Shown: positions 747 through 27,191 of the stretch, one piece after another
Position numbering within the stretch: the first letter of the stretch is position 1
Layout of the letters: the number at the start of each line of letters is the position of its first letter
Origin: a virus
Lineage: Duplodnaviria; Caudoviricetes
Strand: one strand, 5' to 3'
DNA: 57,803 nt
Virus record (IMG/VR): IMGVR_UViG_3300009154_000067
Span: 1 to 57,803 of that record
The notes under the pieces: generated by a model
The model's database searches: none
What the model was told of the DNA's origin: nothing
Seen by the model: the letters and a program-made list of their open reading frames with translations, nothing else
Made by a program: the position numbers and the translations under genes

Positions 747-1196
747 ATGGATGTCATCTGTGATATTGATGGAACGGTAGCTGACCTAACGCATCGTCGC
801 CATTGGGTAGCCACCAAACCAAAAAATTGGAAAGCATTTTTTCAGAACATCGAACAGGATAAACCAATCGATTCTGTTATTAATACCATCCAGGCGCTAC
901 ACAGCAACTGGTGTCAAATCATTTTTTGTTCTGGTCGGGGAGATGAACATCGTGATGTTACCAGAGCATGGTTGATCGAACACATTGGCGATTGGACGGA
1001 GAACTGTCCTCTATACATGCGAGCGCAGGGCGATTTTCGTGCTGATGATATTGTGAAAGAAGAATTGCTTGCAAAAATGCGAGTGGATGGATATAATCCA
1101 ACTATGGCATTCGATGATCGTGCTCGCGTTTGTGACATGTGGATTCGCAATGGCATTTTTGTTTTTGATGTGAGTCAAGGCAAAGGAGATTTTTGA
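747..1196 (+). CDS. HAD-family phosphatase, PseT/PNKP 3'-phosphatase-like domain
   Basis: DIDGT motif I, SGR motif II, MR..D.R.D.IVK and FDDR motifs. Confidence 0.85.
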   Translation: MDVICDIDGTVADLTHRRHWVATKPKNWKAFFQNIEQDKPIDSVINTIQALHSNWCQIIFCSGRGDEHRDVTRAWLIEHIGDWTENCPLYMRAQGDFRADDIVKEELLAKMRVDGYNPTMAFDDRARVCDMWIRNGIFVFDVSQGKGDF

Positions 1197-4018: not shown

Positions 4019-4146
4019 TAGTGTGAGAGTTGGTCTAAAAGTTGGTTCGAATCCAACAAAGTCCTGAAAGTGGCTTCCGGGCTGGTGTGCCGTTCGATTC
4101 GGCCTTGAGATTTGGAATCTAGTGGGATCGTTCCCCACCACACTAT
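4019..4146 (+). ncRNA. tRNA-like RNA with three T-arm-like hairpins
   Basis: 7-bp acceptor TAGTGTG/CACACTA and T-arm GTGGG-ATCGTTC-CCCAC, plus internal GTTGG-TTCGAAT-CCAAC and GCCG-TTCGATT-CGGC. Confidence 0.65.
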
Positions 4147-4157
4147 TTTATTTTTTT

Positions 4158-4233
4158 GCATCGTTGGTCGAATGGCTTAGGCACGGGACTGCAAATCCCG
4201 TTAATGTTGGTTCAATTCCAACACGGTGCTCCA
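4158..4233 (+). tRNA. tRNA-Cys(GCA)
   Basis: Cloverleaf, CT-GCA-AA loop, U73 and CCA. Confidence 0.95.
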
Positions 4234-4242
4234 ATATAGTTG

Positions 4243-4284
4243 TTGACAATGCTACCGGATATCGCTATAATACACCTCATAGAC
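4243..4284 (+). promoter_or_regulatory. Early promoter with CATAGAC motif
   Basis: TTGACA-17 nt-TATAAT followed by CATAGAC. Confidence 0.8.
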
Positions 4285-4302
4285 AGAAAGGAGTAAGTGA
4301 CG

Positions 4303-4476
4303 ATGGAATTGAATTACGGTGAGACTTGGATTGAGCGTCAAATCGAAGCCAAGATCGAACGCATCAATAAGCTTTTTGATGGTGGTAAGATTGATATCGT
4401 TGAGTATCTGGTTCGCCTGAAGTCTATCGAAGATTATGGCGACGATTGTTACGCAGAACTTAAAAATAGTGATTGA
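4303..4476 (+). CDS. Hypothetical early protein (57 aa, MELNYGETW...)
   Basis: AAGGAG RBS; below the ORF-track cutoff. Confidence 0.7.
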   Translation: MELNYGETWIERQIEAKIERINKLFDGGKIDIVEYLVRLKSIEDYGDDCYAELKNSD

Positions 4477-4510
4477 TTTTCTTTAGATTGTAGCGTATAA
4501 ATACTTTTAT

Positions 4511-4631
4511 GGACCGGTAGTTCAGAGGCAGAACGGCGGGCTTTGGGCAGATGATGTGAGATCACGACAGGTGCAAGTCCTGTATGCCAAGCTTAATCCG
4601 CGCGTCGGGATTTCGAAATTCCCCTGGTCCT
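4511..4631 (+). tRNA. tRNA, probably Lys(TTT), interrupted by a 49-nt minihelix-like insert in the anticodon loop
   Basis: GGACCGG/CTGGTCC acceptor, GTTC/GAAC D-stem, GCGGG/TCCGC anticodon stem enclosing CTTT[insert ~4545-4593]TAA, then a T-arm. Confidence 0.8.
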
Positions 4632-4648
4632 TTATTTTATAAAGTTAT

Positions 4649-4772
4649 TGGTTAGTAGGGGAATGGTAGACCCAGAAGACTGTGGGGCCGTTAGTATAAT
4701 ATGGTGCAAATCCATATGGTCCAAAAGTAATCTTCCGCGAAAGCACTGTAGGTTCAAGTCCTACCTAATCAG
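4649..4772 (+). tRNA. tRNA, probably Asn(GTT), interrupted by a 44-nt minihelix-like insert in the anticodon loop
   Basis: TGGTTAG/CTAATCA acceptor with G73, GAAGA/TCTTC stem enclosing CTGT[insert ~4684-4727]TAA, GTAGG-TTCAAGT-CCTAC T-arm. Confidence 0.75.
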
Positions 4773-4777
4773 CATAG

Positions 4778-4833
4778 ACACTTTTAGTTTATAGACAGCA
4801 ACGACAATAAGATTGTCTATAAACTAAAAGTGT
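4778..4833. repeat. Perfect 20-bp inverted repeat, 16-nt loop
   Basis: ACACTTTTAGTTTATAGACA / TGTCTATAAACTAAAAGTGT. Confidence 0.9.
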
Positions 4834-4841
4834 AAGAATTT

Positions 4842-4916
4842 GCTCTCAACCCCTAGATAGCGAGGGACCGGTTTTGTAACCCGGACAGCAGCGCGCAAAT
4901 CGTTGTGGGAGCACCA
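4842..4916 (+). tRNA. tRNA-Thr(TGT), non-canonical D/T loops
   Basis: GCTCTCA/TGGGAGC acceptor, TT-TGT-AA loop, ACCA end. Confidence 0.75.
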
Positions 4917-4919
4917 AAG

Positions 4920-5104
4920 ATCAGAAACTAGACGGAGTAAATAGGGTACCCGTCCTCAAATTGACTGCTGGCAAGTGCCGAGAAATCCACCTATGGAGTG
5001 CAGGGCATTGGTTTCTGATAATAGATTTGATCTGGATACATCTAGCTTAGTTGCCGGTGTCGAAATGTCAGACAACATTTGGTCCAATAACGTGAGGACC
5101 AGCA
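4920..5104 (+). ncRNA. Candidate structured ncRNA(s) in the tRNA array
   Basis: ATCAGAAACTA/TGGTTTCTGAT closing stem with internal hairpins, followed by a TGGTCC/GGACCA hairpin and T-run. Confidence 0.4.
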
Positions 5105-5115
5105 TTTTTTATCGC

Positions 5116-5144
5116 TTGACAGATTTCTGCTGCTCTGATATACT
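5116..5144 (+). promoter_or_regulatory. Early sigma70-type promoter
   Basis: TTGACA-17 nt-TATACT. Confidence 0.75.
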
Positions 5145-5172
5145 CTTAACATCAGATAAGGGATAGATCAAC

Positions 5173-5682
5173 ATGATGCTTCAGACGAATGGCGAAATGT
5201 TTGTTTCGGAATTGATCAACGACCGCTTTCAGATTTTGCAGTCGAAGATTAACAAGGAATATTTCATCTATGATGCGACCAAGGGTGATAATCTGAGAGA
5301 GCGCGGCGAAAGCAACACTCTCTACTTTAAGAACCTTGATAACGCAATGAACCACCTGAATGTAAAGGAAGTTAAGAAGCTTCAATACATTCAGCCTAAG
5401 AAGGAAATTGTTGTGGCTCCTAAACCTGCTGCTGTAGTTATGGCTCCCGCAGCTTCTCCTACGGTCACTGAGGCTCCTATGGTAGCTAAGGCTCCTATGG
5501 CGGTAAAGACTTCGGGGCGTAAGCCTTCTGCTTTTAGCATGCTTATTGAGCTTCTTAAGACGACTAAGAACGACGATGATACGATTATCGTTCTGGTCAA
5601 GGGCGCTTTTCCTGATAGCAATTACAATGCTAGTATGGTAAAGTTCCATCGTAAGAGGTTGGTTACTGAGGGAGTGATATAA
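5173..5682 (+). CDS. Hypothetical early protein with Pro/Ala-rich linker
   Basis: 169-aa ORF after a promoter, with APM repeats. Confidence 0.75.
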   Translation: MMLQTNGEMFVSELINDRFQILQSKINKEYFIYDATKGDNLRERGESNTLYFKNLDNAMNHLNVKEVKKLQYIQPKKEIVVAPKPAAVVMAPAASPTVTEAPMVAKAPMAVKTSGRKPSAFSMLIELLKTTKNDDDTIIVLVKGAFPDSNYNASMVKFHRKRLVTEGVI

Positions 5683-5763: not shown

Positions 5764-5777
5764 TTTTATAAAAAATA

Positions 5778-5904
5778 ACACAAGAGGATAGAACGGGCAC
5801 CTATCGCACCACAATATATAATAAGTGATCGTATTATATGTGGTAAATAGTTTGGTGTAACAAACCAAATGAAGAGATGCCGGAATGTCACCCGGCCTTG
5901 TGTT
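5778..5904 (+). ncRNA. Oversized cloverleaf tRNA-like RNA
   Basis: ACACAAG/CTTGTGT acceptor, GATAG/CTATC arm, long CCACA..TATAAT/ATTATATGTGG arm, TTTGGT/ACCAAA arm and GCCGG/CCGGC T-like arm. Confidence 0.6.
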
Positions 5905-5989: not shown

Positions 5990-6000
5990 ATTTTTTTTAT

Positions 6001-6072
6001 GGCACAGGTATTGATATACAGCCGAGCATCATAGGCTTGGTGTCATTGGTTTAATTCCAATATGTGCTACCA
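6001..6072 (+). tRNA. tRNA with CAT anticodon (Met or Ile2), degenerate D-arm
   Basis: CCGAGC-AT-CAT-AG-GCTTGG arm, ATTGG/CCAAT T-stem, ACCA end. Confidence 0.65.
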
Positions 6073-7365: not shown

Positions 7366-7522
7366 AATAAAAGAACCAGGGTTCCAAGAAGCTTTTTGGA
7401 ATTGGTGGGACTCTCTTGATAAAAACATCAAAGACCGATTTAAAAACTATCAAGAAGATGCTGCTCACATATATTTTTACAATGCTATTTGGTCAAAATA
7501 TAACAAATTTGATAAAAAATAG
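7349..7522 (+). CDS. Hypothetical protein
   Basis: Overlapping gene chain; FWNWWD motif. Confidence 0.65.
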   Translation: MAGVTEIKEPGFQEAFWNWWDSLDKNIKDRFKNYQEDAAHIYFYNAIWSKYNKFDKK

Positions 7523-7564
7523 TTCTTGACTTTCTCCTGTTCCTAGAGTATAAATATAAGTGTT

Positions 7565-7806
7565 ACCGTTGATAACGACTAAATAAGTTAAGCAGGACCG
7601 GAGGGCAGTGCTCCGCATTTCCACCATATTATGGGAATGAAACAGGATCGACTGATGACATTAAGGGTTGAAGTAGGTGATGGCGCGGAAGCTGCCTTAA
7701 CGCAACGAAAACAATAAATGCTAACGACAACGGACGCATTGCTCTAGCCGCTTAAGCTAGGACTGGGCTTTACTGGTTGTGCCTGGAAACAGAAACAATC
7801 TTACCC
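7565..7806 (+). ncRNA. ssrA: Circularly permuted (two-piece) tmRNA, tag ANDNGRIALAA
   Basis: T-arm plus CATTTCC-ACCA (ends 7626) precedes GGGAATG (7633), giving a G3.U70 acceptor stem. Resume codon GCT at 7720; tag ORF 7720-7755. Confidence 0.9.
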
Positions 7807-7844
7807 ATTTTTTACACAGACACACACATAAAGGATAAACAAAA

Positions 7845-8072
7845 ATGAATGCTTATGAAATCAGATTGCAGATATTGACTATGGCCAAGGATATGCTTTT
7901 TCAGGAATGGGGAATGAAGGAGCGCGCTGCTTCTGAAGAATTTTATCAGAAAAGAGAAATTGCGAATAGAGCAAATTCATTCGTGCCATTTCCAGAAATA
8001 GCGCCAATGCCGAGTGCCAATAATATTTTAGAATTGGCAGAAAATTTGAATAAATTCTTGAATAGAGTATAG
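7845..8072 (+). CDS. Hypothetical protein
   Basis: MNAYEIRLQIL.MAKDML motif; AAGGA RBS. Confidence 0.75.
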   Translation: MNAYEIRLQILTMAKDMLFQEWGMKERAASEEFYQKREIANRANSFVPFPEIAPMPSANNILELAENLNKFLNRV

Positions 8073-8974: not shown

Positions 8975-9050
8975 CAGGGTATAGCTCAGTTAGTAGAGTA
9001 CCGCACTTGGAATGCGGAGGCCGCCGGGGCGGGACCAGCTACCCTGACCA
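8975..9050 (+). tRNA. tRNA-Pro(TGG)
   Basis: CAGGGTA/TACCCTG acceptor, CT-TGG-AA loop, ACCA end. Confidence 0.9.
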
Positions 9051-10735: not shown

Positions 10736-10811
10736 GGGCTTGTAGTGATAGAAGTTAGCACACCTGCCTTGCACGCAGGAAGACACGGGGCGGTACCGTG
10801 CTGGTCCACCA
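10736..10811 (+). tRNA. tRNA-Ala(TGC)
   Basis: G3.U70 pair, CT-TGC-AC loop, ACCA end. Confidence 0.9.
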
Positions 10812-19496: not shown

Positions 19497-20993
19497 ATGT
19501 CAGAATTTTATACAAATGTATTTCAGCGCGGTAATAAAATTTATCTACGTGGGTACAAAGATGGCGTGGTAGTGCGCGAGAAGATTGATTACAAGCCATA
19601 TCTTTTTGCGCCTGCTGGTACAGAATCGATGACACCATATCGCACTCTGTATGGTGTCCCTATGGTCAAGAGAAATTTTGACACAATTCAGGAAGCCAAT
19701 AAATTTCTTGAGACGCACAGCGATATTTCAAATTTTCATGTTCATGGTCTAACGGACTATAAATATCTATTCATTTATGATCGTTTTCATGGTGAAATTG
19801 AATACGATCCTTCCCTAATCAACGTGATCAGTCTTGATATCGAAACCGATTCATCGGATGGGTGGCCGGATATTGATTCGGCTGATAAAGCTATCACAGC
19901 TATCACACTGAGCCGGCGTGGGGTTAAGAAGGTATTTGGGGTATTCCCATACAAGACGACAGATGATAATGTAGAGTACATTCATTGTATTGACGAGCAC
20001 ACTCTTCTTACCAATTTTTTGCAGGTATGGAGAACTGGGCATTTTATGCCTGATATCGTTACTGGGTGGAACATTGAATTTTTTGATATTCCGTATCTGG
20101 TAAATCGTATCAATCGAATTCTTGGCACAAATGATTGTGAAAACCCAGCAAAATATCTTTCCCCATGGAATCTTCTTACTGAGAAGCAAATCGAGATTCG
20201 CGGAAAGACCCATACGGTATTCAATCCTCTTGGCATTTCTGTGCTTGATTATTATCCACTTTACAAGAAATTTAAATTTGAAACGCAAGAAAGTTATCGT
20301 CTGGAAAACATTGCCCAGGTAGAAAATTTGCCTATCAAAAAGCTGGATTATAAGGCACAGGGGTATACCTCTCTTGATGACATGTATAAGAGGAATTTTC
20401 AGCTTTTTATCGACTACAACATTCAAGATACTACCGTAATTGATTTGCTTGAAGAAAAATTAAAGTTTATTGAGCAGGTAATGGCCCTTGCATATGATGC
20501 GAAAGTAAACTATAATGATACCTTGGCGACAGTGAAGCCATGGGATATTATTATTCACAATTATCTACTTGATCGTGCTATTGTCATTCCTCAATTCAAG
20601 CGTGGTAATTTCAGTCAAAATCTAGCCGGTGGATATGTCAAAGAACCAAAAATTGGTATGTCGAAGTGGGTAGTCTCATTCGATTTAACTTCATCATATC
20701 CCAATCAGATTATTCAATATAATATTTCCCCCGAGACATTCCGAGGAAGAGAACAAAAATTTAAAAATATTGATGATTTGATTATTGCCATGAGAGAAAA
20801 TAATTTATCGATTGATGGAAAGTATGCATTTGCGGCAAATGGAACAAAATATGATAAAGATAGACAAGGATTCTTACCATCCATCATGAAAAAGATGTTA
20901 GATGATAGAGCGAAGTATAAAACCCTAATGCTCGAATCAAAGAAACATCTGGAAAAATTGGAAGATGAAATCAAACGTCGTGGTTTGATCTGA
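19497..20993 (+). CDS. 43: Family B DNA polymerase, N-terminal part (gp43A-like)
   Basis: ExoI DIET, TGWN..FFDIPY, YN..D and motif A SFDLTSSYP; ends in the fingers helix. Confidence 0.92.
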   Translation: MSEFYTNVFQRGNKIYLRGYKDGVVVREKIDYKPYLFAPAGTESMTPYRTLYGVPMVKRNFDTIQEANKFLETHSDISNFHVHGLTDYKYLFIYDRFHGEIEYDPSLINVISLDIETDSSDGWPDIDSADKAITAITLSRRGVKKVFGVFPYKTTDDNVEYIHCIDEHTLLTNFLQVWRTGHFMPDIVTGWNIEFFDIPYLVNRINRILGTNDCENPAKYLSPWNLLTEKQIEIRGKTHTVFNPLGISVLDYYPLYKKFKFETQESYRLENIAQVENLPIKKLDYKAQGYTSLDDMYKRNFQLFIDYNIQDTTVIDLLEEKLKFIEQVMALAYDAKVNYNDTLATVKPWDIIIHNYLLDRAIVIPQFKRGNFSQNLAGGYVKEPKIGMSKWVVSFDLTSSYPNQIIQYNISPETFRGREQKFKNIDDLIIAMRENNLSIDGKYAFAANGTKYDKDRQGFLPSIMKKMLDDRAKYKTLMLESKKHLEKLEDEIKRRGLI

Positions 20994-21070
20994 GCAAAAA
21001 CCAACTCGGAAGGACGGCAGAAAAAACCCGAATATTACCAGAGCAATAGAATGGAGAAAGAATAGCAACG

Positions 21071-22214
21071 ATGGATTTACATGATTTAACCGACGATGAA
21101 TTGATTGAAATGAAAAAAAAGGCAGAAAGGGATGTTGCACGTTATCATAATATGCAATTGGCCAAAAAGGTGCAACTTCAACTCAGCATATGGCGCGATT
21201 GCAAACGAATGGTTTCGGTGGTTTGACTTTAATCTGGCAGAGGCTATTACTCTATCTGGTCAGCTTTCCATTCGCTGGATTGAGAAGGAAGTTAATGCAT
21301 ATCTCAACAAAATTCTAAAGACTAAAAATGTTGATTATGTGATCGCATCAGATACAGATTCGATCTATGTCAATATGGAACCTATTGTAAAGTCAATGGG
21401 AATTGTTGATGATCCGCTGGCTGCAACTTTTGCGCTTGATGAATTCTGTAAGACTCATATTCAATCCGTAATCAATAAGTCTTACAAGAAGCTTTCTGAT
21501 TATATGAATGCTTATGAGCAGAAGATGTTCATGAAGCGAGAAACCATTGCGGAGAAGGGAATTTGGCGCGGCAAGAAGATGTACATTCTAAATGCCTGGA
21601 ACATTGAAGGCGTGCAGTTTTCTGAGCCAAAGCTGAAGATCATGGGCATTGAGGCTGTACGGTCTTCGACGCCAAAAGTATGCCGCAATAGCATCAAAAA
21701 GGCTCTTGAAATTATCATGAACAAGGATGAGGAAAGCATCCAGAATTTTATCCAAAATTTCAAGGAAACCTTTGAGAAACTTCCTTTTGAAGATATTGCA
21801 TCACCAAGAGGAATGAACGGTATTGAAAAATATTTCACTAATGGAATAACTGCCATGCAAGAGCAAATTGAATTGTATGGCGCACAATACATTTCTAGAA
21901 CTCCAATCCATGTCAAGGGGGCGATCATTTATAACAGTCTTCTGGTCGCTAATGGTCTAGATAAGAAATATCAAAAGATTGGCAACGGAGACAAGATCAA
22001 GTTTGCATATCTAAAACAACCAAATCCAATTCAAGCTTCAGTAATTTCTATTCCAGAAGAATTGCCACCAGAACTAAAGCTTGAGAAATATATCGACAAA
22101 GAAATGCAATTTGAGAAGACATTTCTTCTGCCTATCAAATCAATTCTTGATGTAATCGGGTGGAAGTCTGATAAGTCTCAGCATTATGCATCTCTTGAGA
22201 GATTCTATGAATAA
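21071..22214 (+). CDS. 43: DNA polymerase C-terminal part (gp43B-like), with +1 frameshift at ~21179
   Basis: ATG 21071 frame gives ...MQLAKKVQL; the +1 frame continues NSAYGA...DTDS...KKMY. Confidence 0.85.
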
Positions 22215-22234
22215 CAAATTTGAAAGGATAATAT

Positions 22235-23146
22235 ATGTCACTACGTGATAGAATTCTACAAAACTCAACAATTAAAGAGACTGCCATTCTGTCGGAAAGT
22301 TTTTTGTTTAAAACCAAAGATGTAGTACCAACCCGAGTACCAATGATAAATGTTGCGCTATCAGGTAAAGTCGATGGTGGTATCATACCGGGACTTACAA
22401 TGATTTCCGGACAATCAAAACACTTCAAATCTGGATTTACTCTACTTTTAGCTTCAGCTTTTCTGAAAAAATACAAAGACGGTATCATTCTATTTTATGA
22501 TTCTGAATTTGGTTCACCAGAAAGTTATTTCGCTTCTTTTGATATTCCTGCTGAAAATGTCGTTCATACTCCGGTAACAGATATCGAAGAATTGAAGCAC
22601 GACATTTCTGTTCAATTAAAAGATTTTACACGAAAAGACAGGGTAATGATACTTGTTGATTCTATTGGTAATTTGGCTTCAAAAAAAGAAACAGAGGATG
22701 CAATCGAGGGCAAAACTGTTGCTGATATGTCAAGAGCAAAAGCATTGAAATCTCTTTTTCGTATTGTCACTCCAAAGCTAACATTAAAAAATATTCCTAT
22801 GGTCGTCATCAATCATACGTACAAAGAGATTGGTCTATATCCCAAGGATATCGTCTCAGGTGGGTGCGTCGATGGGGAGACTATGATTCGGATGGCTGAT
22901 AATAGTTTATCTAAAATGGCTGATTTGACTGTCGGTGATTTTGTTTTAACTATAGATGGACCAAGGAAGGTGATTGCTACATGGAATCCCGAAACATTAT
23001 ATGAGGGTACACCAGATCGTTTTGAAGTTGAATTTGAAGATGGATATAAAGTTATCGTATCCGAAAATCATAAATTCTTAACAATCAATCGTGGATGGGT
23101 TCAAGTCACAGATTTAAATAATTATGATGATTTGGTATCAGTGTAA
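22235..23146 (+). CDS. uvsX: UvsX recombinase N-extein plus split intein N-part (22865-23143)
   Basis: G.SKHFKS, FYDSEFG, DSIGN, NHTY..IG..PK..VSGG, then CVDGET...SENHKFLT..GW (intein blocks A/B). Confidence 0.9.
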   Translation: MSLRDRILQNSTIKETAILSESFLFKTKDVVPTRVPMINVALSGKVDGGIIPGLTMISGQSKHFKSGFTLLLASAFLKKYKDGIILFYDSEFGSPESYFASFDIPAENVVHTPVTDIEELKHDISVQLKDFTRKDRVMILVDSIGNLASKKETEDAIEGKTVADMSRAKALKSLFRIVTPKLTLKNIPMVVINHTYKEIGLYPKDIVSGGCVDGETMIRMADNSLSKMADLTVGDFVLTIDGPRKVIATWNPETLYEGTPDRFEVEFEDGYKVIVSENHKFLTINRGWVQVTDLNNYDDLVSV

Positions 23147-23567
23147 GAAACAAAGGAGTATTTTACTCGCCATAAATTCAACTGGCGCCAACAACAATTT
23201 TTATGGTAAAACACACAGCCTAGAAACAAAGATGTTAATTTCACAAAAATTGACAGGCAATAATTATAGAACAGAAGAAACTATAAAAAAATGGATTGAT
23301 GAAGTTGCAAAAAAACCAAAAACTTCAGAACATAGATTAAAAATAGCCGCTGGTTCAAGAGGATTTCTTGTATTTCAAAATACACAAACTATGGAGATAA
23401 TCCGAATTGATCGCGAAAGTTCTGAAAATTTGAACAAAAATCTATGGGTACATCCAAGAAAACTAAAACCGGAAACAAAATTTAAATGCGATCATTGTGA
23501 AATTATCACAACCAAAGCGTGTTTAAAACGATGGCACAATCAAAATTGTAAAAAAAAGGATTTGTTT
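23124..23567 (+). pseudogene. Decayed homing endonuclease (NUMOD3 and Cys/His tail, no nuclease domain), in frame with the intein C-part
   Basis: GANNNFYGKTHSLETK..IS NUMOD3 motif; C.HC...RWH..NC. Confidence 0.65.
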
Positions 23568-24095
23568 ATGAAAATTACAAATATTAAATCAATCGGTCCC
23601 GGTCCCGTTTATGACATTTCTGTTGATGGGAATGAGCAATATGTTCTTGAAAATGGTATTGTTTCCCACAATACGGGCGCATATTATGGGGCAAATGATA
23701 TCTGGATTATTGGGCGTCAACAAGACAAAGACAAAACCGAAATTTCTGGATATCATTTTATTATCAATATTGAAAAGTCTCGTTTTGTTCGCGAAAAATC
23801 AAAAATTCCTATCACGGTTTCTTTTGCCGGTGGCATCGATAAATGGTCTGGGCTACTTGACTTGGCAATGGAAGCAGGTTATATTGTCAAGCCGAAGAAT
23901 GGATGGTATGCTCGCACAAATAAAGAAACTGGTGAAATGGGTAAAAATATGCGAGAGGATGATTTTATTAATAATAATGAATTCTGGACTTCTCTCTTTG
24001 AAGAAACTGATTTTTCTAGTTGGATTCAGGAAAAATACACTCTTGTTCAGGGCAGCATTATGCCAGAAGACGATGATGAAACTATCAAGGAATAA
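23568..24095 (+). CDS. uvsX: Split intein C-part (35 aa) plus UvsX C-extein
   Basis: AAGGA RBS; MKITNIK...VYDISV....Y....GIVSHN|TGAYYGANDIWIIGRQQ...KSRFVREK. Confidence 0.9.
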   Translation: MKITNIKSIGPGPVYDISVDGNEQYVLENGIVSHNTGAYYGANDIWIIGRQQDKDKTEISGYHFIINIEKSRFVREKSKIPITVSFAGGIDKWSGLLDLAMEAGYIVKPKNGWYARTNKETGEMGKNMREDDFINNNEFWTSLFEETDFSSWIQEKYTLVQGSIMPEDDDETIKE

Positions 24096-25768: not shown

Positions 25769-26386
25769 ATGGTTGATTTACTTTATCAAATATCCAAAAC
25801 AGGTATTGGCTTTGGTACAAAAAAATATTTAAAAAAAACTATATCAAATATGATAAACAAAACCAATAAATTATATAATAAACCAATAGAATATCATTCT
25901 AAAATGTCGGATGGTAGAAAAGTATATTATGGCATTGACGATTTTGATTATGAAATGCACATAATAGTAAATCAAAATGATGCCGTCGAAGCAATATTAG
26001 CTACTGAGAAAAAATGGAAAAGCCAGAGAGTTGAGAGCGTTATTTCCATTCACCGAGCAAAAATTCACAAACTTTATTACCATCTTATTATGAAATTTGA
26101 TTACATCATAATAACTGACAGGCAATCAATTGGTGGAGTTCGTGTATGGCAAAAACTTTCAAAAATGAAAAATATAAACATATATGGCATAAATCCACAA
26201 ACAGATCAATCATATAATATTGATTTGCGAGAAATTCATGACACGCATGTTTCCGATATTGACTTATTAAAAATTAAATCAGCATCGACTGGCGTGTGTA
26301 AAAAAATTGTCAAGAATGAAATTGGCTCCATGAAAGAGACAAGGATGATGAATCTTGTCGCTCATAGTAAAACTTCTACAATATAA
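25769..26386 (+). CDS. Late hypothetical protein, possibly GNAT-like fold
   Basis: TATAAATA at 25737 plus RBS hairpin; TDRQSIGG.RVW motif. Confidence 0.55.
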   Translation: MVDLLYQISKTGIGFGTKKYLKKTISNMINKTNKLYNKPIEYHSKMSDGRKVYYGIDDFDYEMHIIVNQNDAVEAILATEKKWKSQRVESVISIHRAKIHKLYYHLIMKFDYIIITDRQSIGGVRVWQKLSKMKNINIYGINPQTDQSYNIDLREIHDTHVSDIDLLKIKSASTGVCKKIVKNEIGSMKETRMMNLVAHSKTSTI

Positions 26387-26408
26387 ATATCAAAAATTGG
26401 AGATTTAT

Positions 26409-27191
26409 ATGAAAAACGATCCCTGCTGGAATGGCTATAAAATGGTCGGAACAAAGAAAAAAGGCGGTAAGACTGTCCCCAATTGTGTTCCGGTACAGAA
26501 AGAATCTACAGAATTGCTGGATGAGGCAAATACTGCCATTAAAGCAATCGGCGGAACAGAATCTAGACATGTGAGAACATATCTAAAAAATAATGGGTTT
26601 TCTATGCGTGAAAATCAAAATAATGGTGGACATGAAATGTGGGTTCATCCTGATGGCAGAAGTTTTGCTATTCCGAGACATAAAGGTGATTTGTCGCCGG
26701 GCATTTTAAACAGCGCATATAAAGTTGCTAAGGGCACAAAAATGAATGAAGAAAAATTATCTGTGCAAGCAGCAAATGTAAAAAAATATGGAAGTTCTGA
26801 AAAACGTTCTAAAGTTAAAGCAAATCCGTTGTCTAGATTGGATGGTGATCCAACAGATTATATCAAAGATACCCCAGGACAAAGTAAATTGGCAACTGTC
26901 AAGAAAATTGTCAAAGAAGCTTTAAATAAATTAGAAGAAGATGCTAAAGGCTATAAAAATCCTACTGGCGGTTTGACCCAAGCTGGCCGCGATCATTATA
27001 ACAGAGAAACTGGTGGAAATCTACAGGCCCCAGTAACAACACCTCCTCAAAAATTAAAGCCAGACAGCAGAGCCGCCAATCGCAGAAAGTCTTTTTGTGC
27101 TAGAATGTCCGGAGTAGAAGGACCAATGAAAAAACCAAATGGTAAACCAACCCGCAAAGCACTAGCTTTAAGAAAATGGAATTGTGAATAA
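26409..27191 (+). CDS. Late modular protein containing a HicA-like domain (~26550-26738)
   Basis: DPCW.GY..VG.K.K.G..VPNCV module; L..NGF......GGHE.W.HP.....IP.H..DL..G.L.S HicA pattern; C-terminal GGLT..GR..YN...SFCARM...W.C module. Confidence 0.75.
   Translation: MKNDPCWNGYKMVGTKKKGGKTVPNCVPVQKESTELLDEANTAIKAIGGTESRHVRTYLKNNGFSMRENQNNGGHEMWVHPDGRSFAIPRHKGDLSPGILNSAYKVAKGTKMNEEKLSVQAANVKKYGSSEKRSKVKANPLSRLDGDPTDYIKDTPGQSKLATVKKIVKEALNKLEEDAKGYKNPTGGLTQAGRDHYNRETGGNLQAPVTTPPQKLKPDSRAANRRKSFCARMSGVEGPMKKPNGKPTRKALALRKWNCE

What the first reader, a model, noticed from the sequence alone, without database searches (positions are those of the whole stretch)
4511..4772. Two adjacent tRNAs whose anticodon loops carry tRNA-minihelix inserts: candidate new tRNA intron class
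Seen: both genes have complete acceptor, D, anticodon and T arms, but the anticodon loop holds 49 or 44 extra nt in the same register (CTNT-GGG...CC-AANN-NTAA). Each insert folds as an acceptor-like stem plus T-arm with a GG-TGCAART-CC loop. Insert 1: GGCA/TGCC, small hairpin, ACAGG-TGCAAGT-CCTGT. Insert 2: GGGCCGT/ATGGTCC (with a G3.U pair and A discriminator), ATGG-TGCAAAT-CCAT. The sequences differ but the structure is shared. Excision between positions 35 and 36 gives Lys(UUU) and Asn(GUU), neither otherwise present in the window; U1-A72/G73 fits Asn. Other cut registers give other anticodons. The inserts are too short for group I introns and show no clear bulge-helix-bulge. Established: RNase P recognises acceptor-plus-T-arm minihelices, and tRNA-Lys(UUU) is the PrrC target. 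Inference: the intron mimics a pre-tRNA so host processing enzymes excise it and a ligase seals the exons. Alternatively the unspliced form is a nuclease-resistant store or decoy.
Basis: partly seen in the sequence, partly recalled or inferred. Interest (0 to 1): 0.92.

Follow-up and report, generated by a model that had tools for sequence, protein, structure and literature searches.

The report
tRNA-shaped introns inside phage tRNAs
Two neighbouring phage tRNA genes are each split in the anticodon by a tiny insert that is itself shaped like the top half of a tRNA, and they belong to a widespread but barely described family of phage tRNA introns whose way of removal is still unknown.

Summary
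Window 4511-4631 and 4649-4772 are well-formed tRNA genes with 49- and 44-nt inserts in the anticodon loop. A contig from another freshwater run carries the second gene without exactly those 44 nt (4684-4727). That fixes the junction at 35|36 and the anticodon as Asn GUU.

The inserts are not isolated. Motif scans plus an intron-aware ARAGORN run gave 24 non-redundant relatives in phage and metagenome contigs. All share one plan: an end-to-end helix, a variable middle, and a T-arm-like hairpin lying against the 3' strand. The intron 3' end lies 16 nt after the T-like loop in 18 of 24, as in a mature tRNA. NCCA tails occur in 7 of 24. Three long members score as tRNAs in Rfam. Related introns sit in tRNAs of different identity.

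Group I, bulge-helix-bulge and IS200/IS605 tests fail. 'Enigmatic' introns in phage tRNAs, one tRNA-like, were reported for Lak megaphages in 2019, without class or mechanism.

The most likely mechanism is excision by the enzymes that trim tRNA ends (RNase P at the 5' site), then ligation. This is inferred, not shown.

The parts
4511..4544 (+). tRNA 1 exon 1: acceptor 5' strand, D arm, anticodon stem 5' strand 4536-4540, loop nt CTTT 4541-4544
   Evidence: ARAGORN with introns; sequence. The exon/intron border assumes the Lys(UUU) register. A CUU register (border after 4542) is not excluded.
4545..4593 (+). Intron 1, 49 nt. N1 G 4545 lies opposite A 4589. P1 is 4546-4549 with 4585-4588. Small hairpin 4556-4565. 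T-arm-like hairpin 4567-4583 (loop TGCAAGT 4572-4578). 4-nt tail 4590-4593.
   Evidence: The contigs of runs X2 and X3 cover it and show no other letters there. 15 nt from the T-like loop to the 3' end.
4594..4631 (+). tRNA 1 exon 2: loop nt TAA, anticodon stem 3' strand 4597-4601, T arm with a U:U in the last stem pair, acceptor 3' strand 4624-4630, discriminator T 4631
   Evidence: Not reported by Rfam's tRNA model.
4649..4683 (+). tRNA 2 (Asn GUU) exon 1, ending with loop nt CTGT
   Evidence: The border is fixed by the intron-less contig.
4684..4727 (+). Intron 2, 44 nt. N1 G 4684 lies opposite A 4723. P1 is 4685-4691 with 4716-4722. 9-nt linker. T-arm-like hairpin 4701-4715 (loop TGCAAAT 4705-4711). 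4-nt tail AAAG 4724-4727.
   Evidence: A contig of run X2 joins 4683 to 4728, skipping exactly these 44 nt with no ambiguity in the junction. 12 stacked layers and 16 nt from the T-like loop to the 3' end, as in tRNA nt 61-76.
4728..4772 (+). tRNA 2 exon 2: loop nt TAA, anticodon stem 3' strand, 12-nt variable region, T arm, acceptor 3' strand 4765-4771, discriminator G 4772
747..1196 (+). Context only: stand-alone polynucleotide kinase/phosphatase (PNKP) phosphatase-domain protein upstream of the tRNA array. Possible RNA end-healing function; a link to the introns is not shown.
   Evidence: Pfam HAD_PNKP 7e-30; PHROG polynucleotide kinase 2e-37.

Best explanation
What it is (well supported). 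Each insert is a member of a family of small, ORF-less intervening sequences that sit in the anticodon loop of phage tRNA genes. They are built like a tRNA seen from its top half. The two intron ends pair (P1, the acceptor-stem equivalent). A T-arm-like hairpin stacks directly on the 3' strand of P1. Four unpaired nucleotides follow, where a tRNA has N73-CCA. Larger relatives are complete tRNA look-alikes. The two window copies are the minimal form. The host tRNAs are real genes for Asn(GUU) and Lys (UUU more likely than CUU).

How it works (inferred). The precursor is read as exon 1, then a tRNA-like unit, then exon 2.
- RNase P cuts at the 5' end of the mimic, which is the 5' splice site.
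- A 3'-end-maturation nuclease cuts at the position equivalent to nt 76, which is the 3' splice site.
- The two tRNA halves stay held together by the tRNA body and carry 3'-OH and 5'-phosphate ends.
- An ATP-dependent RNA ligase (phage Rnl-type, or a host enzyme) seals them.

Because the cut sites are set by the intron's own shape, the same kind of intron can live at different positions of the loop and in different tRNAs.
For: Shown:
1. Intron-less allele. An X2 contig joins 4683 to 4728 and keeps intron 1. The 161 nt after the joint are identical to the window, and the 215 nt before it have 3 other letters.
2. A family exists. The motif scan gave 78 viral and 120 metagenome stretches. ARAGORN with introns then gave 47 distinct intron-bearing tRNAs holding the motif. 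After parsing and de-replication, 24 non-redundant introns remained.
3. P1 covaries. Every P1 sequence differs, yet the strands pair. The mean contiguous run is 6.0 pairs, with 22 of 24 at 5 or more. In 552 chimeras with the 5' strand swapped, the mean is 3.9 and 34% reach 5.
4. tRNA geometry. The stack of P1 plus T stem is 12-13 contiguous pairs in the best-formed members and about 11-12 in most others once flanking non-standard pairs are read in by eye. The intron 3' end is 16 nt after the T-like loop in 18 of 24. NCCA tails occur in 6 of 23, plus L261, against about 0.4 expected if the four bases were equally frequent (my estimate).
5. Rfam's tRNA model scores three introns themselves at 54.6, 41.5 and 35.1 bits, above the gathering score of 29.
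6. The insertion site varies (32|33 x1, 33|34 x1, 34|35 x7, 35|36 x13, 36|37 x1) while the intron geometry stays the same.
7. Exon helices are intact in all 24: acceptor 7/7, anticodon stem 5/5, T stem 5/5 in 23. Sequences differ between orthologues. Anticodons predicted from the geometry agree with discriminator bases. L224 has G3:U70 for Ala. The Leu and Tyr cases have long variable arms (read by eye).
8. Related introns sit in different tRNAs. Intron/exon identity is 78%/58% for Lys versus Leu, 75%/57% for Gln versus Tyr, and 67%/59% for Pro versus Thr.
9. The 5' site is T|G in both window introns. Across the family, -1 is T in 19 of 23 and +1 is G in 13 of 23. Ordinary tRNA 5' ends in the same loci show 63% and 63% (n = 542).
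10. Ligase genes. The L017 contig (92% complete) has Rnl1 (66 bits) and Rnl2 (88 bits). Three other large records have an OB-fold plus RNA_ligase ORF.

Inferred from established knowledge (recalled): bacterial RNase P recognises the acceptor/T minihelix. RNase P and RNase Z leave 3'-OH and 5'-phosphate ends.
Against: - No RNA data. No RNA run holds the region, so splicing itself has not been seen.
- The junctions of the relatives were chosen by me with the geometry rule, so the 16-nt and 4-nt counts are partly circular. Only intron 2 has an independently fixed junction.
- 6 of 24 depart from 16 nt: window intron 1 and L023 at 15, L170 x2 at 13, L238 at 14, L183 at 8.
- The first pair of the mimic is not a standard pair in 12 of 23 (G opposite A in 9), both window introns among them.
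- I know of no common bacterial nuclease that cuts at 76|77 whatever the sequence. Canonical RNase Z cuts after N73.
- T at -1 may simply reflect the U-rich 5' side of anticodon loops.
- Folding z-scores of the two inserts are unremarkable.
- No RNA ligase lies in the 35% of this genome that is held. The ligase-like ORFs of three records are below Pfam's cut-offs.
- Gene 1 has a flawed T stem and is not seen by Rfam.
Confidence: 0.5

Rival explanations
1. Endonuclease plus heal-and-seal. A dedicated or borrowed protein endonuclease (phage- or host-encoded) cuts both sites and leaves 2',3'-cyclic phosphate and 5'-OH ends. PNKP with an Rnl-type ligase, or host RtcB, then repairs the break, as in T4 tRNA repair or yeast tRNA splicing. 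In this reading the tRNA-like shape is the enzyme's handle.
For: A PNKP phosphatase-domain gene lies at 747-1196, just upstream of the tRNA array. The L017 contig has Rnl1 and Rnl2. The constant intron geometry fits any enzyme that measures from the T-like loop.
Against: No EndA-type domain in 5 records, 3 of them at least 90% complete. No RtcB in the same 5. No unknown protein of the window's tRNA region recurs in the other intron-bearing loci, although those loci are short. The carrier phages are very different from one another, which favours a universal host enzyme.
Confidence: 0.2
2. Not spliced. The inserts are selfish DNA (a miniature transposon, for example of the IS200/IS605 hairpin type) that lands in anticodon-loop DNA, inactivates a dispensable phage tRNA gene and can excise precisely at the DNA level.
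For: There is a DNA-level presence/absence polymorphism with a seamless empty site. The elements have a conserved hairpin near one end and no ORF.
Against: No Y1 transposase in 5 records. The left flank is not a fixed target word: CTGT, CTTT, CTT, CT, C, TTT and CTTAT all occur. All 24 lie in the sense of the tRNA. tRNA-specific features (16 nt to the end, NCCA tails, Rfam tRNA scores) are not needed by a DNA element. Exon helices stay perfect across diverged carriers.
Confidence: 0.1
3. Nested gene. The inner tRNA-like RNA is the useful product (a suppressor tRNA, a decoy or a regulator released by tRNA processing). The outer tRNA is only a scaffold or is sacrificed. Alternatively, the unspliced RNA acts as a nuclease-resistant store or decoy.
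For: The intron at L021 2828-2899 scores 54.6 bits as a tRNA, and its anticodon-like loop reads CUA (sequence). A free-standing RNA of similar design lies at window 6000-6072.
Against: The minimal introns, including both in the window, have no anticodon arm at all and mostly no CCA. The outer exons are conserved as perfect tRNAs. An intron-less allele of the outer gene exists.
Confidence: 0.1
4. Self-splicing or self-cleaving RNA. The insert is a very small ribozyme, or one half of one.
For: There is a conserved hairpin loop and conserved geometry. Small self-cleaving ribozymes of about 50 nt exist (recalled).
Against: No ribozyme or group I/II family matches 4440-4840 at E<=10. Apart from the T-like loop the two inserts share almost no sequence. 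That loop can be replaced by ordinary T loops in relatives.
Confidence: 0.04

Closest known systems
'Enigmatic' introns of Lak megaphage tRNAs (Devoto et al. 2019, Nat Microbiol, PMC6784885; bioRxiv 10.1101/356790; passages read)
   Same: Introns lie in the anticodon region of phage tRNA genes. They are present or absent between closely related genomes and highly conserved where present. One (Thr UGU) is predicted to encode a tRNA, and Tyr(GUA) is also interrupted. Locus L199 shows the same two isotypes with members of the family described here.
   Different: That work gave no structural class, no common architecture and no mechanism. It concerned >540-kb gut phages. The window is a T4-like freshwater phage fragment with much shorter, minimal inserts (44 and 49 nt). 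Sequence identity to the Lak introns could not be checked: Supplementary Table 6 is closed, and no Lak record matched in the phage collection.
Group I introns in bacterial and phage tRNA anticodon loops (e.g. Williams 2020 bioRxiv 10.1101/2020.01.27.920355, abstract read)
   Same: They sit in the anticodon loop at variable positions, usually with a U before the 5' splice site, and are mobile between tRNAs.
   Different: Group I introns need a catalytic core of about 200 nt or more. Here the inserts are 44-123 nt, have no Rfam group I match and no conserved terminal G.
Archaeal/eukaryal protein-spliced tRNA introns (bulge-helix-bulge, EndA/TSEN, then RtcB or Trl1)
   Same: Short, ORF-less introns in the anticodon loop, with intron ends that pair.
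   Different: 0 of 23 have the strict bulge-helix-bulge geometry. The site is 32|33 to 36|37 rather than 37|38. No EndA domain occurs in 5 phage records. The window carries a bacterial-type two-piece tmRNA.
tRNA punctuation and tRNA-like processing signals (mitochondrial transcripts; MALAT1 mascRNA; recalled knowledge)
   Same: A tRNA-shaped element inside a longer transcript directs cuts at its own 5' and 3' ends by RNase P and a 3' nuclease.
   Different: There the flanks are separate RNAs. Here the flanks are two halves of one tRNA that must be rejoined.
Phage T4 tRNA repair by PNKP and Rnl1 (recalled knowledge)
   Same: A break in a tRNA anticodon loop is sealed by a phage RNA ligase. PNKP- and Rnl-type genes are present in some carrier phages.
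   Different: In T4 the break is damage made by a host anticodon nuclease, not programmed removal of an insert.

Membership tests
Group I intron | Conserved catalytic core (P3-P9), typically more than 200 nt | tested here: not met
   The inserts are 49 and 44 nt. cmscan of 4440-4840 at E<=10 gave no intron family.
Group I intron | U at -1 and terminal G (omega G) of the intron | tested here: inconclusive
   -1 is T in 19 of 23. The last intron base is G in only some members (tails such as ACCA, CCTT, AAAA).
Bulge-helix-bulge (archaeal/eukaryal) tRNA intron | Two 3-nt bulges on opposite strands separated by a 4-bp helix, with the splice sites in the bulges | tested here: not met
   The central helix is fully paired in 1 of 23. 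It is fully paired with a flanking helix in 0 of 23. Both window introns score 0 of 4.
Bulge-helix-bulge (archaeal/eukaryal) tRNA intron | Splicing endonuclease (EndA/TSEN) available | tested here: not met
   PF01974 in 0 of 5 phage records, with controls positive in 4 archaea. Host genomes were not examined.
Phage tRNA introns of the Lak-megaphage kind | Intervening sequence in the anticodon loop of a phage-encoded tRNA, absent from some near-identical genomes | tested here: met
   The X2 contig lacks exactly 4684-4727. Description in PMC6784885.
Phage tRNA introns of the Lak-megaphage kind | Sequence relationship to the published Lak introns | not testable with these tools
   Supplementary Table 6 is closed. 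The phage collection gave no Lak match to L199.
tRNA-like (acceptor/T-arm minihelix) processing substrate | Coaxial stack of about 12 pairs from the T loop to the 5' end | tested here: met
   Intron 2 has 12 layers (1+7+4). Intron 1 has about 11. Most relatives have 11-13.
tRNA-like (acceptor/T-arm minihelix) processing substrate | T-loop motif (U..RA in a 7-nt loop closed by G-C) | tested here: met
   The loops are TGCAAGT and TGCAAAT. Relatives have TTCGAAT, TTCAAAT or TTCAAAC at the same place. The window's own tRNA-Met has TGCGAAT. The TGCAART form was the search key, so its frequency is biased.
tRNA-like (acceptor/T-arm minihelix) processing substrate | 3' end four nt past the helix (N73-CCA position) | tested here: met
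   Intron 2: 4711 to 4727 is 16 nt, with the junction fixed independently. 18 of 24 overall are at 16 nt. NCCA tails in 7 of 24. The window tails are AAAG and AGCT, not CCA.
tRNA-like (acceptor/T-arm minihelix) processing substrate | Actual cleavage by RNase P and a 3' nuclease | not testable with these tools
   No RNA run was listed.
IS200/IS605-type miniature element (PATE) | Fixed 4-5 nt target word at the left end; Y1 transposase in the genome or its host | tested here: not met
   The left flanks vary. PF01797 in 0 of 5 records. Hosts were not examined.

The most novel reading that the evidence does not exclude
A further class of tRNA intron exists in bacteriophages. It is a tRNA-shaped 'punctuation' intron that carries no catalytic core and no bulge-helix-bulge. 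It is cut out at both ends by the cell's own tRNA end-maturation enzymes (RNase P and a nuclease acting at position 76|77). The halves are rejoined by a 3'-OH/5'-phosphate RNA ligase. This would give phage Rnl-type ligases a housekeeping role in splicing. It would also explain how these introns hop between positions and between tRNAs, and link full nested tRNAs (one with a CUA anticodon-like loop) to 44-nt minimal forms as one evolutionary series.
Probability: 0.35. Interest if true: 0.92.

Novelty: new variant of a known kind. Interest (0 to 1): 0.8.

Why it matters
Bacterial-type tRNA genes are thought to be interrupted only by group I introns. Short protein-spliced introns are a hallmark of archaea and eukaryotes.

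The single earlier report of odd introns in phage tRNAs left them 'enigmatic'. This window, set beside 22 non-redundant relatives, gives them a common architecture that copies the ends of a tRNA to the nucleotide. It also gives a defined empty site and shows them in unrelated phages (a T4-like freshwater phage, gut phages).

That turns an open question into bench experiments with clear predictions: which enzymes cut, what the end chemistry is, and which ligase joins.

If the model holds, it adds a splicing pathway to bacteria, a natural substrate for phage RNA ligases, and a reason why standard tRNA finders under-count phage tRNAs. Default ARAGORN missed both genes here.

Tried and rejected
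- RNA evidence. The look-up of sequencing runs listed no RNA holder, so expression and splicing could not be examined.
- Folding energy. The z-scores of the inserts and of the whole genes are weak, so I dropped thermodynamic stability as an argument.
- Syntenic relatives. The search for related loci with the PNKP phosphatase protein gave 5 loci. Only one has tRNAs and none is interrupted.
- Cultured phages. blastn of window 4100-5100, L012 6590-7710, L236 1230-1700 and L199 150-2150 against 50,697 phage records found only ordinary tRNA or HNH matches.
- Cellular genomes. The motif scan of genome contigs gave 71 stretches. Only L108, a copy of the L012 phage family in a MAG, carries an intron of this kind.
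- Shared splicing protein. tblastn of 24 window ORFs against all loci found none shared with the other intron-bearing loci.
- Covariance model. MAFFT put the T-like hairpin in register but not P1, so I built no model. I counted pairs with my own parser and a chimera control instead.
- Promoter and terminator scan of 4300-4950. Nothing on the + strand.
- Rows dropped. Before de-replication I removed L002, L011, L013, L077 and L225, whose parses were implausible. L261 was re-registered by hand. The splice register of each relative was set by hand.
- Rejected readings. Group I, bulge-helix-bulge, IS200/IS605 and ribozyme; see the membership tests and rival explanations.
- The supplements of Devoto et al., which hold the Lak intron sequences, could not be seen and bear on whether the window's family is the same.
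Full report
**Setting**

The window is a 57.8-kb fragment of an uncultured virus, with completeness estimated at 35%. It carries T4-like replication genes:
- a family B DNA polymerase in two ORFs;
- a UvsX recombinase interrupted by an intein;
- a DnaB-like helicase.

It also has a tRNA array at 2.3-10.8 kb, with a two-piece alpha-type tmRNA and a skipping-rope RNA. DNA runs that hold the region are freshwater metagenomes.

**The observation**

Default ARAGORN finds 10 tRNAs and a tmRNA but nothing at 4511-4772. With introns allowed it calls two more genes:
- tRNA-Lys at 4511-4631, with a 49-nt intron;
- tRNA-Asn(GUU) at 4649-4773, with a 44-nt intron at 35|36.

Rfam's tRNA model matches 4649-4772 over its full length at 38.3 bits, with a 47-nt insertion in the anticodon loop. 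It does not report the first gene.

GGTGCAARTCC occurs only at 4570 and 4703 in the window. The other tRNAs of the window decode Leu, Cys, Trp, Gly, Met, Ser, Pro, Val, Gln and Ala, so Lys and Asn are otherwise missing.

Gene 1 has a U:U in its T stem. Folding energies are not unusual (z -0.27 and -1.6 for the inserts). The structure therefore had to be tested by comparison.

**An empty site**

I laid the contigs of four runs on 4100-5200. Run X2 comes from another sample and is recorded as 'DNA?'. One of its contigs, 376 nt long, covers 4469-4683 and 4728-4888. It skips exactly 44 nt (4684-4727), and no letters are shared across the joint.
- The 161 nt after the joint are identical to the window. 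The 215 nt before it have 3 differences.
- The same contig keeps the 49-nt insert of gene 1.
- The joined loop reads CTGT|TAA, which is Asn(GUU) with the insert between nt 35 and 36.

If the run is DNA, this is an intron-less allele. If it were RNA, it would be the spliced form. Either way the 44 nt are a discrete, precisely removable unit.

**A family**

I searched for the pattern 'T-like hairpin core, 15-45 nt, ordinary T arm':

| Collection | Stretches found |
|---|---|
| Viral contigs | 78 |
| Genome contigs | 71 |

ARAGORN with introns, run on all 274 loci plus the window, gave these counts:
- 793 tRNAs, 88 of them with an intron of at least 30 nt;
- 47 distinct interrupted tRNAs with the motif inside the intron.

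In the genome collection only L108, a MAG contig that copies the L012 phage family, has such an intron. The phenomenon is therefore essentially viral in this sample.

A parser that looks for a T-loop hairpin and a helix between the intron ends fitted 45 of 76 distinct candidates. I removed five loci with implausible parses and collapsed sequences more than 85% alike. That left 24 non-redundant introns of 44-123 nt.

**Architecture**

Every member has the same order of parts:
- a 5' strand of P1 at or one nt after the 5' junction;
- a variable middle of 9-88 nt, often with one or two hairpins;
- a hairpin with a 7-nt T-type loop closed by G-C;
- 0-3 nt of linker;
- the 3' strand of P1;
- a short tail.

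P1 sequences are all different, yet the strands are complementary. The contiguous pairing averages 6.0, and 22 of 24 have 5 or more pairs. In 552 chimeras whose first 16 nt came from another member, the average is 3.9 and 34% reach 5.

With the splice register set so that the tRNA gets a 7-nt loop, the intron 3' end falls 16 nt after the T-like loop in 18 of 24. That is the distance from nt 60 to nt 76 in a tRNA. The tail is NCCA in 6 of 23, plus L261. Exceptions are window intron 1 and L023 (15 nt), two L170 introns (13), L238 (14) and L183 (8).

I chose those registers with the geometry in mind, so these counts are partly circular. Three things are independent of that choice:
- Intron 2 is fixed by the empty site, with 4711 to 4727 = 16 nt.
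- The predicted anticodons agree with discriminator bases (G73 for the Asn and most Gln cases, A73 for Leu, Tyr, Ala and Pro).
- They also agree with G3:U70 in the predicted Ala tRNA and with long variable arms in the predicted Leu and Tyr tRNAs (read by eye).

**From minimal to complete tRNA mimics**

Three introns with ordinary T loops and a D arm are scored as full-length tRNAs by Rfam:
- L021 2828-2899, 54.6 bits;
- L199 223-304, 41.5 bits;
- L012 6633-6716, 35.1 bits.

Their boundaries coincide with tRNA positions 1 and 76. The L021 one has an anticodon-like loop reading CUA.

A 45-nt intron in a Leu tRNA (L236) is 78% identical to one in a Lys tRNA (L209). It has TTCAAAC where the other has TGCAAAT, so the TGCAART loop is a T-loop variant. 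The window's own tRNA-Met has TGCGAAT as its T loop.

**Mobility and selection**

Related introns occupy tRNAs of different identity, with exon identity at background level. In the last two pairs P1 is entirely different but still complementary.

| Pair | Intron identity | Exon identity |
|---|---|---|
| Lys versus Leu | 78% | 58% |
| Gln versus Tyr | 75% | 57% |
| Pro versus Thr | 67% | 59% |

The insertion site ranges from 32|33 to 36|37. The exons of all 24 carriers keep perfect acceptor and anticodon stems, and 23 keep a perfect T stem, on different sequences. This argues that the outer tRNAs are used, and hence spliced.

**What it is not**

- No group I or II intron or ribozyme family matches.
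- Strict bulge-helix-bulge geometry occurs in 0 of 23.
- No EndA domain, no Y1 transposase and no RtcB occur in five records, three of them at least 90% complete.
- The left flank is not a constant target word.

**Mechanism**

Cut sites follow the intron's own shape. That shape is a tRNA top half with tRNA-exact ends, and the carriers are unrelated phages that share no obvious dedicated protein. The economical reading is therefore that universal tRNA end-maturation enzymes do the cutting.

RNase P would act at the 5' site. The site is T|G in both window introns, and its composition resembles ordinary tRNA 5' ends in the same loci.

The 3' cut is at the 76|77 equivalent, not after N73. The nuclease is therefore open. 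RNase Z/BN forms that cut after CCA are known to me only from recall.

Such cuts would leave 3'-OH and 5'-phosphate ends, which suit Rnl-type ligases. The L017 contig encodes Rnl1 and Rnl2. Three other large records encode an ORF with an N-terminal OB fold and an RNA_ligase domain, both below Pfam's cut-offs. The held part of this genome has only a PNKP phosphatase-domain gene.

None of these steps is shown.

**Literature**

Ten searches were run. They found one relevant work: Devoto et al. 2019 (PMC6784885) and its preprint, of which I read the matching passages.
- It reports 'enigmatic', highly conserved introns in Lak megaphage tRNAs (Phe, Gly, Thr, Tyr).
- One intron is predicted to encode a tRNA.
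- Some genomes lack an intron.
- The authors remark that such introns may be common in large phages.
- No architecture or mechanism is given.
- The sequences are in a supplement I could not open.

Williams 2020 (abstract) concerns group I introns only.

**Verdict**

The finding is real. It is a minimal variant of a kind that has been sighted once but never explained. The tRNA-mimic architecture is well supported, and the enzymology is a testable inference.

Noticed in passing
window 6000-6072 (+): Free-standing tRNA-like RNA between tRNA-Gly and tRNA-Met. It has an acceptor-like helix, one internal hairpin, a T arm (ATTGG-TTTAATT-CCAAT), then ACCA and a T run. It has the same design as the introns but is not inside a tRNA. 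ARAGORN does not call it even at a lowered threshold.
   Followed up: partly
window 8975-9047 and 10736-10808 (+): tRNA-Pro(UGG) and tRNA-Ala(UGC) are found by Rfam but not by default ARAGORN. Their T loops read GGCGGGA and GGCGGTA instead of the usual TTCRANT.
   Followed up: partly
window 7522-7846 (+): Phage-encoded two-piece (permuted, alpha-type) tmRNA with tag ANDNGRIALAA. Rfam 101.8 and 93.6 bits. It hints at an alphaproteobacterial host.
   Followed up: no
window 5777-5904 (+): Skipping-rope RNA (RF02924, 56.6 bits) between tRNA-Trp and tRNA-Gly.
   Followed up: no
window 4496-4503 and 17 other places: TATAAATA occurs 18 times against 5.1 expected, 15 of them on the + strand. Several lie just upstream of tRNAs: 7 nt before tRNA 1, and also before tRNA-Trp and tRNA-Pro. 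It resembles the T4 late-promoter word (recalled).
   Followed up: partly
window 4778-4834: A 19-bp perfect inverted repeat directly after tRNA 2. It shows up as spurious microRNA matches. The terminator scan does not call it.
   Followed up: no
window 19497-24095 (+): Family B DNA polymerase split into two ORFs (19497-20993 and 21132-22214). UvsX/RecA-like gene interrupted by an intein with a NUMOD3 motif (22235-24095).
   Followed up: no
window 26355-27191 (+): ORF joining a HicA-toxin-like domain to DUF6321.
   Followed up: no
L002, L013, L026, L047, L049, L052, L059, L067, L077, L225: A different set of long type-II tRNA-like genes. GGTGCAAATCC sits where the anticodon arm should be, so G is at position 33. 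About 70 extra nt, holding a second T-arm-like hairpin, precede the real T arm. ARAGORN's readings of them disagree with one another.
   Followed up: partly
L021 2828-2899: The intron of one tRNA is itself a well-formed tRNA (Rfam 54.6 bits) whose anticodon-like loop reads CUA, as an amber suppressor would. The record is a complete 169-kb phage genome with terminal repeats.
   Followed up: partly
L012 1068-1118: Sub-threshold match to the type-P1 twister ribozyme (41.1 bits, gathering 67.2) inside a phage tRNA array.
   Followed up: no
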